NCBI GenBank assembly: GCA_964369695.1
Contig: CAYJGL010000002.1
Span: forward strand, 35 to 64,034
DNA length: 64,000 nt
Direction of reading: 5' to 3'
DNA from: an uncultured Clostridium sp.
GTDB lineage: Bacteria > Bacillota > Clostridia > TANB77 > CAG-508
Of the stretch, positions 23,325 to 63,377 are shown piece after piece. Under the pieces are notes generated by a model, which saw only the letters and a list, made by a program, of their open reading frames with translations, did not search any database and was not told the DNA's origin. Each line of letters opens with the position of its first letter. Within the stretch, counting starts at the first letter, position 1. Both the position numbers and the translations under genes were made by a program.

Positions 23325-23753
23325 ATGAATAATCCAGAATATATATTAAATCAATTAACAAAAGGTATAAAAATGGGAATGGATTCAATATCAACAATAA
23401 GTGAACAAATAAGTGATAAAGAATTAAAAAATGATTTAAAATTCCAATATGATGAATATAACAACATTTTAAATCAAGTTGACACAGAATTAAAAAACTA
23501 TGATGCGTTTCCAAAAGAATTAAACCCTATGCAAAAAGCAATGGGTTGGATGACTATAAAATGGTCCACACTTGATGATAAAAGTGACTCAAAAATAGCA
23601 GAAATGATGTTGCAAGGTCTGAATATGGGTATAATTGAAGGAGTAAAACTTTCAAATAACAATAAAAATGCTGAAGGAAATATACCAACAATATTAAACA
23701 ACTTTATTAATTTCCAAGAAAACAGCATACAAAAACTAAAAAAATATCTCTAA
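23325..23753 (+). CDS. small all-helical hypothetical protein (possibly four-helix-bundle, DUF2383-like)
   Basis: The only plus-strand gene. AAGGAAGGA lies upstream of the ATG. The composition is helical, and LNQLTKGIKMGMDSISTISEQI resembles ferritin-like DUF2383 N-termini (weak recall). Confidence 0.6.
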   Translation: MNNPEYILNQLTKGIKMGMDSISTISEQISDKELKNDLKFQYDEYNNILNQVDTELKNYDAFPKELNPMQKAMGWMTIKWSTLDDKSDSKIAEMMLQGLNMGIIEGVKLSNNNKNAEGNIPTILNNFINFQENSIQKLKKYL

Positions 23754-23761
23754 TTTAGAAG

Positions 23762-23839
23762 TAATAATGTCGCATTGGGGACTGTCCCTAAAACGACATG
23801 AATGTCGCGTCGGGGACTGTCCCCAATGCGACATTATTA
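23762..23839. repeat. GC-rich palindromic repeat, copy 1 (dimeric form)
   Basis: Perfect 20-bp terminal inverted repeats, taataatgtcgcattgggga / tccccaatgcgacattatta. They enclose a second inner palindrome (gtccctaaaacgacat / atgtcgcgtcggggac). It fills the convergent gap between 23325..23753 and apt and overlaps the apt stop codon. Confidence 0.9.
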
Positions 23840-28571: not shown

Positions 28572-28598
28572 CTCCTAACTTAAAAAGACAAAATTAAA

Positions 28599-28654
28599 GG
28601 CCTGTCCCAAAAACGACATAAATGTCGCGTTGGGGACTGTCCCCAATGCGACAC
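28599..28654. repeat. GC-rich palindromic repeat, copy 2 (1.5-unit form); probable terminator of the giant operon
   Basis: Sequence ggcctgtcccaaaaacgacataaatgtcgcgttggggactgtccccaatgcgacac. It is a 54/56 reverse-complement match to copy 3. It lies 30 nt after the stop of the 3396-aa ORF. Confidence 0.9.
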
Positions 28655-28684
28655 TATTTTATTTTTTCTTTTCTTTTTATTATT

Positions 28685-61552: not shown

Positions 61553-62068
61553 CTATATTAATAAAATAACTAACATTAACCCAGCAACAACGCCTAATTT
61601 ACTATATAATTTTTCATTCTTATCTTTTTCTAAAATAGCACTTTTAATCTGCTTATCCAAAAACTCATTAGTAACTTTAATTTGAGCAACTTGTCCTTCT
61701 ATATCAGTTTGTCCCAAAAGTTTCGAAAGATTTTTAATAGCAATAATATCGTCTTTTGTTAATTCCAATTCGATTTCATTGATAGCAAAACTCCATGCTT
61801 CAGATGCAGTCATAGACTTCATACTAGCACTAGCTAATCTAAACATTTCAGCAACACTTTCATTAAACTCATTATTTGAAATCTGTAAAAAAATTTCTGG
61901 TAATGGCTCATACGTAAATTTTACTTTTGTTTCAAAAACAGATAAAGCAGACTTAAAATCTTCCAAAACCTTTACTCTTAAAACAAACCTTCTAGAAATT
62001 AACCTACCTAAAAATACACAAGAACAAAAAAGTAAAGCTATAACAAAATACTTAATAAACATAATCAT
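61553..62068 (-). CDS. spoIIIAB: stage III sporulation protein AB
   Basis: 171 aa with N- and C-terminal TMs, in the right operon position. The ATG at 62068 lies inside repeat copy 3. The ATG at 62062 (MFIKYF) looks like the ancestral start. Confidence 0.8.
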   Translation of the reverse strand: MIMFIKYFVIALLFCSCVFLGRLISRRFVLRVKVLEDFKSALSVFETKVKFTYEPLPEIFLQISNNEFNESVAEMFRLASASMKSMTASEAWSFAINEIELELTKDDIIAIKNLSKLLGQTDIEGQVAQIKVTNEFLDKQIKSAILEKDKNEKLYSKLGVVAGLMLVILLI

Positions 62069-62122
62069 GTCGCATTAGGGACAGTCCCCAACGCGACATT
62101 TATGTCGTTTTTGGGACAGGCC
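62067..62122. repeat. GC-rich palindromic repeat, copy 3 (inverted relative to copy 2), inserted between the spoIIIAB Shine-Dalgarno and start codon
   Basis: Sequence atgtcgcattagggacagtccccaacgcgacatttatgtcgtttttgggacaggcc. It is flanked on the minus strand by GGAGGtaa (5') and gattATG (3'). Confidence 0.9.
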
Positions 62123-62304
62123 TTACCTCCTTTTCTTTTTTATTTTCTTTTTTATTTTATTTTATTTTATTTTTATTTTTATTTCTTTTTTTATTCATTT
62201 ATTTTTTATTCATTTTGCTTTATTACATTATTATATGCTTTCCATTTTTTTTTAGAACTTTTTTAGACTTTTAATTTTAAACATTATAAATAATCAAATT
62301 ATAT

Positions 62305-63341: not shown

Positions 63342-63377
63342 AAATGTCGTATTGAGATAATTCCCAATACGACATTT
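63342..63377. repeat. degenerate (AT-decayed) single-unit copy 4 of the palindromic repeat; terminator-like
   Basis: Perfect 13-bp arms aaatgtcgtattg / caatacgacattt. They align to the ATGTCGCATTGGGGA arm of copies 1-3 with G/C to A/T changes. It lies 24 nt after the stop of 63401..64000. Confidence 0.7.

What the first reader, a model, noticed from the sequence alone, without database searches (positions are those of the whole stretch)
23762..23839. Family of GC-rich nested palindromic repeats (REP/MITE-like) in an AT-rich genome
There are four copies in 64 kb: 23762..23839, 28599..28654, 62067..62122, and a decayed copy at 63342..63377. The core unit is ATGTCGCATTGGGGAC-(1-3 nt)-GTCCCCAATGCGACAT, with 16-bp arms that stand out as GC-rich islands.

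- Copy 1 is a dimer with perfect 20-bp outer arms. It can fold either as two tandem hairpins or as one long nested hairpin.
- Copies 2 and 3 are 1.5 units.
- Copy 4 is one unit with G/C to A/T decay but retains compensatory arm symmetry.

All four lie in intergenic positions right after stop codons, or in one case before a start codon. They probably serve as terminators or stabilisers, but the high copy-to-copy identity (54/56 between copies 2 and 3) implies recent spread or concerted evolution. No transposase or RAYT-like gene is in the window.
Basis: seen in the sequence. Interest (0 to 1): 0.6.

Follow-up and report, generated by a model that had tools for sequence, protein, structure and literature searches.

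The report
REP-like repeats with tyrosine transposase
The GC-rich palindromes are real copies of a small hairpin-forming DNA repeat that this uncultured gut Clostridia genome carries at about 29 sites, and its matching single-copy tyrosine transposase gene sits on another contig; this is a known kind of element in a poorly documented host group.

Summary
The window holds 11 half-sites in four loci (0.06 expected by chance). The 1.99-Mb draft genome holds 31 hairpins at 29 intergenic loci.

The canonical unit is about 58 nt. It has a 16-bp-arm hairpin, a 3-nt spacer, a degenerate third arm and an AGGCCT tail. Eighteen such copies average 92% pairwise identity.

The genome has one Y1/HUH transposase gene (274 aa), closest to E. 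coli TnpA-REP in sequence and in predicted fold, with a repeat copy abutting it.

In at least 21 species of the genus the orthologous gene lies at the same place, between a 134-aa gene and radA. Where both flanks were read (10 loci), it lies between inverted copies of that species' own repeat variant. The outer stem of the repeat co-varies between species around an invariant GGGGAC core. Genomes with no transposase hit lack the repeats, with one exception.

This matches the TIRtron/TIRYT system of Di Nocera et al. 2013, equated with TnpA-Y1 subclass 2.1 and RAYT group 1. It is therefore a new member of a known kind.

Mobility itself is inferred, not shown. Any terminator role is secondary at best.

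The parts
23762..23839 (.). Copy 1, a dimer. It has two tandem hairpins (23767-23799 and 23802-23834) with 21-bp perfect outer arms. It lies between convergent genes: a 142-aa gene on + ending at 23753, and a 179-aa gene on - whose stop codon (23837-23839) lies inside the outer arm.
28598..28654 (-). Copy 2, a canonical three-arm unit read on the - strand: hairpin, TTA spacer, third arm TGTCGTTTTTGGGAC, AGGCCT tail. It lies between the stop of the 3396-aa gene and the start of the 228-aa gene, both on -. In 7 related species this same intergenic site holds a second transposase paralog.
62067..62123 (+). Copy 3, a canonical three-arm unit on the + strand. Its first two bases are part of the start codon (read on -) of a 171-aa ORF at 61553-62068. 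An SD-like GGAGGT lies on the far side of the repeat.
63344..63375 (.). Copy 4, a decayed hairpin-only copy: ATGTCGTATTGAGATAATTCCCAATACGACAT. The 11-bp outer stem is kept through one compensatory change.

Best explanation
The repeats are a REP-type family of non-autonomous, hairpin-forming DNA elements. They belong to a single-copy HUH/Y1 tyrosine transposase of the RAYT/TIRYT kind. In this genome that gene is on contig C5, immediately upstream of radA.

**Proposed mechanism, inferred by analogy with E. coli TnpA-REP and IS200/IS605 TnpA.** The enzyme recognises the folded repeat on single-stranded DNA, for example at replication forks. It cuts and rejoins next to the hairpin and so copies or moves the repeat into intergenic DNA. 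Selection then keeps copies only where they are tolerated, mostly at gene ends.

**Species specificity.** Each species of the genus has its own variant of the repeat. The variable outer stem is kept by compensatory changes, around an invariant GGGGAC core that is probably the contact site of the enzyme. In this genome the second arm has become an almost perfect complement of the first, giving an unusually stable GC-rich palindrome.

**Shown**
- The repeat family and its anatomy.
- The transposase gene and its class.
- The flanking arrangement.
- Synteny across species and co-occurrence of enzyme and repeats.
- Stem covariation.

**Inferred**
- Catalysis on these repeats.
- Current mobility.
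- Any terminator or RNA-stabilising side effect.
For: **Repeat family**
- 29 loci, all intergenic or touching gene ends, in a genome that is about 89% coding.
- 18 full 58-nt copies average 91.7% identity, including the spacer, third arm and tail, which a plain terminator would not need to conserve.

**Transposase**
- There is one PF01797 hit in the whole genome.
- NCBIfam scores it 58 bits for REP-associated tyrosine transposase against 22 bits for IS200.
- The HUH and Y-x-H-x-N-P motifs are invariant in 12 orthologs.
- The only PDB sequence match is 4ER8, TnpA-REP. The best fold match is also 4ER8 (model pLDDT 81.6).

**Arrangement**
- A canonical repeat lies 209 nt after the gene's stop and abuts radA.
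- In relatives the ortholog is flanked on both sides by inverted copies of that species' repeat.
- The location between the 134-aa gene and radA is shared by at least 21 species.

**Co-occurrence**
- The relatives' core TGGGGACGKTTC occurs 15-96 times in 11 genus members. The reversed-pattern control gave one match in the genus and two outside, and genomes outside the genus have at most 1 copy.
- 9 of the 10 genus genomes without a transposase hit have no repeat family. Fisher p = 0.028.

**Covariation**
- Outer-stem positions 3-8 switch between GC, CG, AT and TA pairs across species.
- G.T wobbles occur on one strand only.

**Wider distribution.** 44 of 72 loci of the wider protein family have flanking inverted repeats; many that contain GGGAC share GGGGACGGTTC-like cores. 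These loci come from Bacillota and a few other phyla.

**Literature.** TIRtrons and TIRYTs with a GGGGWSAS motif and moderately abundant TIR families are described in PMC3733652. They are equated with subclass 2.1 in PMC6006769, which also places 291 of 292 RAYT group 1 sequences of PMC5581495 in subclass 2.1.
Against: - No direct evidence of mobility.
- In this genome only one side of the transposase gene carries a repeat.
- The protein scores below the NCBIfam equivalog cut-off (58 against 80 bits).
- There is no GTAG tag as in classical REPs.
- Copies show no orientation bias relative to GC skew, about 11 against 10. A strictly lagging-strand-specific mechanism might produce such a bias.
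- 13 genus genomes have a transposase homolog but not these two repeat patterns. They may carry other variants; this was not checked.
- The co-occurrence test is not corrected for phylogeny.
Confidence: 0.85

Rival explanations
1. The hairpins are primarily intrinsic terminators or mRNA-stabilising stem-loops. Selection at the RNA level or gene conversion keeps them similar, no transposase is involved, and the neighbouring Y1 gene is coincidental.
For: - Copies are enriched between convergent genes, 9 of 29 against 8.6% expected.
- The stems are very stable, -23 to -29 kcal/mol as RNA.
- In canonical orientation the hairpin is followed by a U-rich stretch, UUUAUGUCGUUUUU.
- One copy passes the terminator scan.
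Against: - Both orientations relative to transcription are about equally common among tandem-gene sites.
- Two copies lie between divergent genes. Several sit just 5' of an SD sequence or against a start codon.
- Non-stem positions (spacer, third arm, AGGCCT tail) are conserved.
- The one scan hit is on the strand with no gene ending there.
- Each species' repeat variant flanks that species' transposase gene.
- Repeats are absent from nearly all genomes that have no transposase hit.
Confidence: 0.06
2. The repeats are MITEs left by a conventional (DDE-type) insertion sequence that is now lost or unassembled. The Y1 gene merely sits in a repeat-rich spot.
For: - The draft assembly has 175 contigs and is 94.7% complete, so an insertion sequence could be missing.
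- The dimer copies look superficially like two joined inverted ends.
Against: - No target-site duplication is visible at the ends of the aligned copies (by inspection only).
- The units are single 33-58-nt hairpins, not pairs of ends around an internal segment.
- The flanking arrangement around the Y1 gene recurs where both flanks were read, and the gene's position is shared by at least 21 species.
- The same arrangement occurs across distant Bacillota with the same GGGGACGGTTC core.
Confidence: 0.04
3. The unit is a strand-specific structured RNA, either a cis-regulatory leader or a small RNA, present in multiple copies.
For: - The three-arm design allows two mutually exclusive hairpins, arms 1:2 or arms 2:3. 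Copy 3 folds in the alternative form.
- Several copies lie in 5' leaders.
Against: - There is no Rfam match at gathering score. Only generic long-hairpin sub-threshold hits appear, and on both strands.
- There is no orientation preference relative to neighbouring genes.
- The neighbouring genes are functionally unrelated.
Confidence: 0.03

Closest known systems
TIRtrons and TIRYTs (TIR-associated tyrosine transposases; Di Nocera, De Gregorio & Rocco 2013, PMC3733652). Quentin et al. 2018 (PMC6006769) equate these with TnpA-Y1 subclass 2.1. Bertels et al. 2017 (PMC5581495) call the corresponding proteins RAYT group 1.
   Same: - A long (255-275 aa) RAYT-like Y1 protein with a C-terminal helical, HTH-like extension.
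- The gene is flanked by terminal inverted repeats that carry a GGGGAC-type motif. The published consensus is GGGGWSAS. Here it is GGGGACAG in copies with an A at the apex, and GGGGACGK in relatives.
- The repeats also occur as a moderately abundant dispersed family of single and dimeric units.
- Group 1 was already noted in Clostridia.
   Different: - The published examples contain no Firmicutes repeat family: 'Firmicutes' and 'Clostridi' do not occur in PMC3733652.
- Quentin et al. report finding no REP-like secondary structures next to subclass 2.1 genes. Here the flanking repeats are hairpins with stem covariation.
- In this genome the hairpin has become a near-perfect 16-bp-arm palindrome with a third arm.
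- Placement of this protein inside subclass 2.1 was not tested by phylogeny.
Classical REP/BIME/REPIN elements with RAYT (TnpA-REP; E. coli YafM, PDB 4ER8; Pseudomonas REPINs, PMC3116915)
   Same: - Short intergenic palindromes.
- A single-copy, syntenic, apparently vertically inherited Y1 transposase flanked by inverted repeats.
- Species-specific pairing of repeat and enzyme.
- Monomer, dimer and cluster forms.
- The best sequence and fold match of the enzyme is 4ER8.
   Different: - No GTAG tag.
- The enzyme is about 100 aa longer, with an extra C-terminal domain.
- Copy number is tens, not hundreds.
- The host is a 26% GC Clostridia lineage.
- The enzyme scores below the NCBIfam REP_Tyr_transpos cut-off.
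IS200/IS605 family (IS608, ISDra2 TnpA)
   Same: An HUH/Y1 fold. Imperfect hairpins are presumably recognised on one DNA strand. No target duplication is evident.
   Different: - The gene is single-copy and at a fixed chromosomal position.
- The repeats are not left and right ends of a mobile gene cassette.
- No tnpB gene lies next to the gene among the ORFs listed.
- The IS200 model scores only 22 bits.

Membership tests
REP/RAYT system (REPtron) | Many dispersed, short, intergenic palindromic repeats | tested here: met
   31 hairpins at 29 intergenic loci in 1.99 Mb. Window count is 11 half-sites against 0.06 expected.
REP/RAYT system (REPtron) | Y1/HUH transposase of the RAYT class (HUH motif; Y-x-x-x-N-P motif) | tested here: met
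   PF01797 at 53.6 bits. NHxH and YxHxNP are invariant in 12 orthologs. The PDB sequence and fold best hit is 4ER8.
REP/RAYT system (REPtron) | Score at or above the NCBIfam NF047646 (REP_Tyr_transpos, equivalog) cut-off | tested here: not met
   58.4 bits against a cut-off of 80. It is still far above IS200, at 22.1 bits.
REP/RAYT system (REPtron) | Transposase gene flanked by the repeats in inverted orientation | tested here: met
   Both sides carry inverted copies in L004-L009 and further relatives. In this genome only the radA side is kept.
REP/RAYT system (REPtron) | Conserved GTAG (or CGTC) tag at one end of the repeat | tested here: not met
   The ends are ATGTCG... and ...AGGCCT. No GTAG or CGTC is seen in the consensus.
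REP/RAYT system (REPtron) | Single-copy gene at a conserved chromosomal position (vertical inheritance) | tested here: met
   One copy in this genome. It lies between the 134-aa gene and radA in at least 21 species.
TIRtron/TIRYT = TnpA-Y1 subclass 2.1 | Long protein with a C-terminal HTH-type extension (Bac_DnaA_C, HTH_23 or HTH_28) | tested here: inconclusive
   The proteins are 255-277 aa. The model has an all-helical C-terminal half. Pfam hits are only sub-threshold: HTH_23 in 3 of 12 members and HTH_28 in 1 of 12. A sigma-70 region-4-like hit has E = 0.008.
TIRtron/TIRYT = TnpA-Y1 subclass 2.1 | Flanking inverted repeats carrying GGGGWSAS | tested here: inconclusive
   GGGGACAG fits in copies with an A apex (6 of 18). 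GGGGACTG, and the relatives' GGGGACGK, differ at position 7. The exact motif was seen in 5 of 44 flanking repeats of the wider family.
TIRtron/TIRYT = TnpA-Y1 subclass 2.1 | Phylogenetic placement within subclass 2.1 / RAYT group 1 | not tested
Intrinsic (Rho-independent) terminator | GC-rich stem directly followed by a T-run, on the strand of the gene that ends there | tested here: not met
   The scan flags only copy 2, on the + strand, while both neighbouring genes are on -. Orientation relative to genes is mixed.
Any Rfam RNA family | Match at the family's gathering score | tested here: not met
   No match in the window at gathering score. Permissive searches give only generic hairpin hits far below cut-off, on both strands.
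MITE of a DDE-type insertion sequence | Two terminal inverted repeats around an internal segment, with target-site duplication | tested here: inconclusive
   No duplication was seen by eye in the aligned flanks, but the AT-rich flanks give little power. No formal test was run.

The most novel reading that the evidence does not exclude
The repeat next to the transposase gene may be part of how radA is expressed, and not just a passenger. In 14 of 21 species the repeat ends exactly at radA's ATG. No SD sequence lies in the 20 nt before that ATG, and an SD-like purine run sits on the far side of the ~50-nt repeat. The transposase gene lies directly upstream on the same strand. The same layout recurs at a second gene in this window (copy 3). 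On this reading the folded repeat, alone or bound by the Y1-HTH protein, would control translation of a DNA-repair operon (radA-disA). That would tie a domesticated single-strand-DNA enzyme to the repair response.
Probability: 0.08. Interest if true: 0.6.

Novelty: new member of a known kind. Interest (0 to 1): 0.3.

Why it matters
REP/RAYT-type systems are described almost entirely from Proteobacteria. The HTH-bearing subclass was reported to have no REP-like structures nearby.

This case adds to several others in the same scan. It shows that the subclass maintains hairpin repeat families in small, AT-rich genomes of uncultured gut Clostridia. The enzyme gene is fixed at one locus beside radA across a whole genus.

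Practically, these GC-rich palindromes should be masked or annotated. They are not genes, terminators or RNA genes by default. They may also break assemblies.

The genus offers a natural series of co-varying enzyme and repeat pairs for studying recognition specificity.

Tried and rejected
- **Exact-pattern scans of public collections found nothing.** The genome collection and JGI metagenome contigs both gave no hits. This species, or at least its repeat, is not otherwise represented there (records of the window's own genome may also be left out of these scans), so strain polymorphism could not be tested.
- **Exact-protein look-ups** for the two genes flanking copy 1 found no other contigs.
- **Rfam.** There was nothing at gathering score. 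Permissive hits are microRNA-precursor-like hairpin matches on both strands and were rejected.
- **Orientation bias.** None was found relative to replication (local GC skew) or to transcription, so no strand-specific RNA role or lagging-strand signature can be claimed.
- **Hairpin bridging of SD and start codon.** I considered that the folded repeat could bring the SD sequence and radA's AUG together, as in phage T4 gene 38. The predicted folds leave about 18-24 nt between them, so this is not supported as stated.
- **Upstream ORF.** A short ORF starting in the repeat exists in some species but is not conserved: it is absent in this genome and stops after 3 codons in L008.
- **C79:4995-5010.** This is a lone 3-mismatch half-site inside a gene and was treated as a chance match.

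Full report
**1. Observation**

The four loci are present as described. The half-site ATGTCGCRTTGGGGAC, with up to 3 mismatches, occurs 11 times in the window. Dinucleotide-preserving shuffles give 0.06 on average and at most 1.

The window is 22-28% GC with strong negative GC skew, so these roughly 58% GC units stand out.

- Copy 1 (23762-23839) is two tandem hairpins with 21-bp perfect outer arms. As single-stranded DNA it folds into one long nested hairpin: -34.2 kcal/mol, z -9.9.
- Copies 2 and 3 are the same 57-nt unit in opposite orientation, 54/56 identical.
- Copy 4 (63344-63375) is a decayed hairpin that keeps an 11-bp outer stem through a compensatory C:G to T:A change.

**2. Genome-wide anatomy**

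The window is C2:35-64034 of a 1.99-Mb, 175-contig, 25.7% GC assembly. That assembly has 79 half-sites (3 or fewer mismatches) in 31 clusters. This amounts to 31 hairpins at 29 real loci, including two dimers.

The canonical unit is ATGTCGCATTGGGGAC-[T/A]-GTCCCCAA[C/T]GCGACAT-TTA-TGTCGTTTTTGGGAC-AGGCCT.

- Eighteen such 58-nt copies have a mean pairwise identity of 91.7% (range 84.5-100%). The spacer, third arm and tail are as conserved as the stem.
- A smaller subfamily has a different tail, ...GGGACAGTCCTTATGG.
- Other copies are the 33-nt hairpin alone.
- Most hairpins carry an A8/C26 mismatch on the canonical strand, which is a G.T wobble on the other strand. Together with the third arm this gives the unit polarity.
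- The third arm can pair with the second arm instead of the first. In copy 3, where arm 1 carries a G-to-A change, this alternative fold is the predicted optimum.

None of the loci is on C1. Earlier notes of this scan identify that 264-kb contig as a jumbo phage.

**3. Context**

I used a crude ORF-based gene map (1906 ORFs, 89% coverage). All 29 loci are intergenic or overlap a gene end by a base or two.

| Setting | Loci |
|---|---|
| Between convergent genes | 9 |
| Between divergent genes | 2 |
| Between tandem genes | 18 |

Convergent spacers make up only 8.6% of intergenic length, so the enrichment there is significant (p = 5e-4).

Among the tandem cases both orientations relative to transcription are about equally frequent. 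Orientation relative to local GC skew is also even, about 11 against 10.

Several copies end exactly at a stop codon (C46, C17, C31). Some end exactly at a start codon (radA on C5; the 171-aa ORF next to window copy 3). Others sit just 5' of an SD sequence (C30, C34, C13).

The terminator scan flags only copy 2, and on the strand on which no gene ends.

Rfam gives nothing at gathering score. In permissive mode it gives only generic long-hairpin hits on both strands.

**4. The transposase**

The genome has exactly one match to Pfam Y1_Tnp, at C5:32173-32997 on the - strand, an intact 274-aa ORF.

- NCBIfam scores it 58.4 bits for REP-associated tyrosine transposase. This is below the equivalog cut-off of 80. 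The IS200 model scores 22.1 bits.
- An alignment with 11 orthologs keeps the HUH motif (N-H-x-H), the Y-x-H-x-N-P motif and a Y-x-W-S-S motif invariant.
- A profile of that alignment finds a single solved structure, 4ER8, E. coli TnpA-REP.
- The AlphaFold model (pLDDT 81.6) has 4ER8 as its best fold match, followed by the IS608 and ISDra2 transposases. Its C-terminal half is all-helical.
- The C-terminal half has only sub-threshold HTH hits: HTH_23, HTH_28 and sigma-70 region 4.
- A canonical repeat lies 209 nt downstream of the gene and abuts the radA start codon. The upstream side has no copy in this genome.

**5. Relatives**

Thirty-six other species genomes of the same genus were searched.

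- Transposase homologs (28-43% identical) occur in 26 of the 36.
- Half-site variants (ATGTCCAATTGGGGAC, ATGTCTCATTGGGGAC, ATTTCGCATTGGGGAC) occur in about a dozen.
- The relatives' core TGGGGACGKTTC occurs 15-96 times in 11 of them. The reversed-pattern control gave at most one match per genome (three in all), and genomes outside the genus have at most one copy.
- Nine of the ten genus genomes without a transposase hit lack the repeats. The exception is a 79%-complete genome. Fisher's test gives p = 0.028, not corrected for phylogeny.

In the loci fetched around the orthologs, the gene is flanked on both sides by inverted copies of that species' own repeat. In at least 21 species it lies between the same two genes, a 134-aa gene and radA.

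RadA is 70-85% identical between these species. The transposase of this genome is only 35-44% identical to the others. This genome's enzyme and its repeat are therefore both outliers.

**6. Structure conservation**

Twenty-one flanking hairpins from 13 loci keep GGGGAC invariant. Outer-stem positions 3-8 change through compensatory pairs, for example ATGTCGCA/..CGACAT, ATGTCCAA/TTGGACAT, ATGTGAAA/TTTCACAT, GTGGTAATT/AATTACCAC and TTCCCTAA/TTAGGGAA.

Positions 11-14 pair as G-C or G.T on the strand as written. On the complement they are A.C mismatches. That asymmetry is what one expects if one single strand is the recognised form.

The relatives' hairpins are weak as DNA (-1 to -9 kcal/mol). 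This genome's are -14 to -16 kcal/mol.

**7. Wider family and literature**

The full-length protein family is widespread in Bacillota, including Clostridia, Bacilli, Negativicutes and Desulfotomaculia, and occurs in a few other phyla. In 44 of 72 such loci the gene has flanking inverted repeats, many sharing GGGGACGGTTC-like cores.

- Di Nocera et al. 2013 (PMC3733652) described 'TIRtrons'. These are RAYT-like 'TIRYT' genes flanked by inverted repeats that share GGGGWSAS. Some of the repeats form moderately abundant families of single, dimeric or clustered units.
- Quentin et al. 2018 (PMC6006769) equate TIRYTs with their subclass 2.1: long proteins with a C-terminal HTH. They state that they found no REP-like structures next to these genes. 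They also place 291 of 292 RAYT group 1 sequences of Bertels et al. in subclass 2.1.
- Bertels et al. 2017 (PMC5581495) note group 1 in Clostridia, with flanking 16-mers at about 12 copies.

The present family fits this description. It adds hairpin structure with covariation and a Clostridia host.

Earlier notes of this scan report the same kind of system in other uncultured gut Clostridia genomes. I read them after reaching this reading, and they are not independent evidence.

**8. Mechanism**

*Shown:* the family, its anatomy, the cognate gene, the flanking arrangement, synteny, co-occurrence and covariation.

*Inferred:* the rest is by analogy with TnpA-REP and IS200/IS605 TnpA, which is established biochemistry for 4ER8 and IS608. 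On this view the enzyme binds the folded repeat on single-stranded DNA and cuts and rejoins beside it. The repeat population is thereby generated and maintained, while the enzyme gene itself stays put.

A terminator or stabiliser effect on some transcripts is possible, given the convergent-gene enrichment, but it is not the defining property.

**9. What could not be done**

Strain-level presence/absence and read-level excision joints could not be tested.

**10. Verdict**

The feature is real and was correctly interpreted. It is a new member of the TIRtron / REP-RAYT kind, of modest interest.

The most unusual aspect is the repeat sitting exactly against SD-less start codons, at radA in 14 of 21 species and at a second gene in this window. 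This remains unexplained.

Noticed in passing
G000 C5:31930-31990 (L002 2430-2490); relatives L004-L031: In 14 of 21 species the repeat downstream of the transposase gene ends in ...GACAT|G, so radA's ATG overlaps the repeat end. No SD sequence lies in the 20 nt before the ATG. An SD-like purine run lies 5' of the ~50-nt repeat. The other 7 species have a normal SD between the repeat and the ATG. How radA is translated in the 14 is unexplained.
   Followed up: partly
window 61553-62123: The 171-aa ORF on the - strand begins MIMFIKYFVIALLFCSC, which looks like a lipoprotein signal peptide. It starts at the very end of repeat copy 3. The only SD-like sequence (GGAGGT) lies on the far side of the 57-nt repeat. 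This is the same layout as at radA.
   Followed up: no
L097, L098, L102, L103, L111, L114, L118 (relatives); window 28572-28684: A second Y1 transposase paralog (245-257 aa) has its own inverted repeats, ATGAGACA..TTGGGACAGTCC..TGTCTCAT. In 7 related species it lies between the giant surface-protein gene and the 228-aa gene. That is the same intergenic site that holds repeat copy 2 in this genome. Its downstream repeat lies inside the first ~20 codons of the 228-aa gene.
   Followed up: partly
G000 contig C1 (264 kb): No repeat copy lies on this contig, which earlier notes identify as a jumbo phage. About 4 would be expected if copies were spread evenly. This is consistent with the contig being foreign to the chromosome.
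   Followed up: no
G000 C5:8474, C23:19656, C44:7236 versus C31:5346, C46:3280, C145:918: The apex variants GGGGTCTGTCCCC and GGGGACAGACCCC are reverse complements of each other within otherwise co-oriented units. It looks as if a mutation was copied from one arm to the other, or the apex was flipped.
   Followed up: no
L002 2490-2650 (G000 C5:31990-32150): An A-rich 15-16-nt tandem repeat (AAAGTAAAAAATATA, about 5 copies) lies between the transposase stop codon and the repeat next to radA. Similar T-rich low-complexity runs border window copies 2 and 3.
   Followed up: no
L004-L012 upstream of the transposase gene: A conserved hairpin, GTATAGC(A)...(T)GCTATAC followed by a T-run, lies between the upstream repeat and the transposase gene in most species. 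It is probably the terminator of the 134-aa gene. The transposase gene would then start a transcription unit that continues into radA.
   Followed up: no
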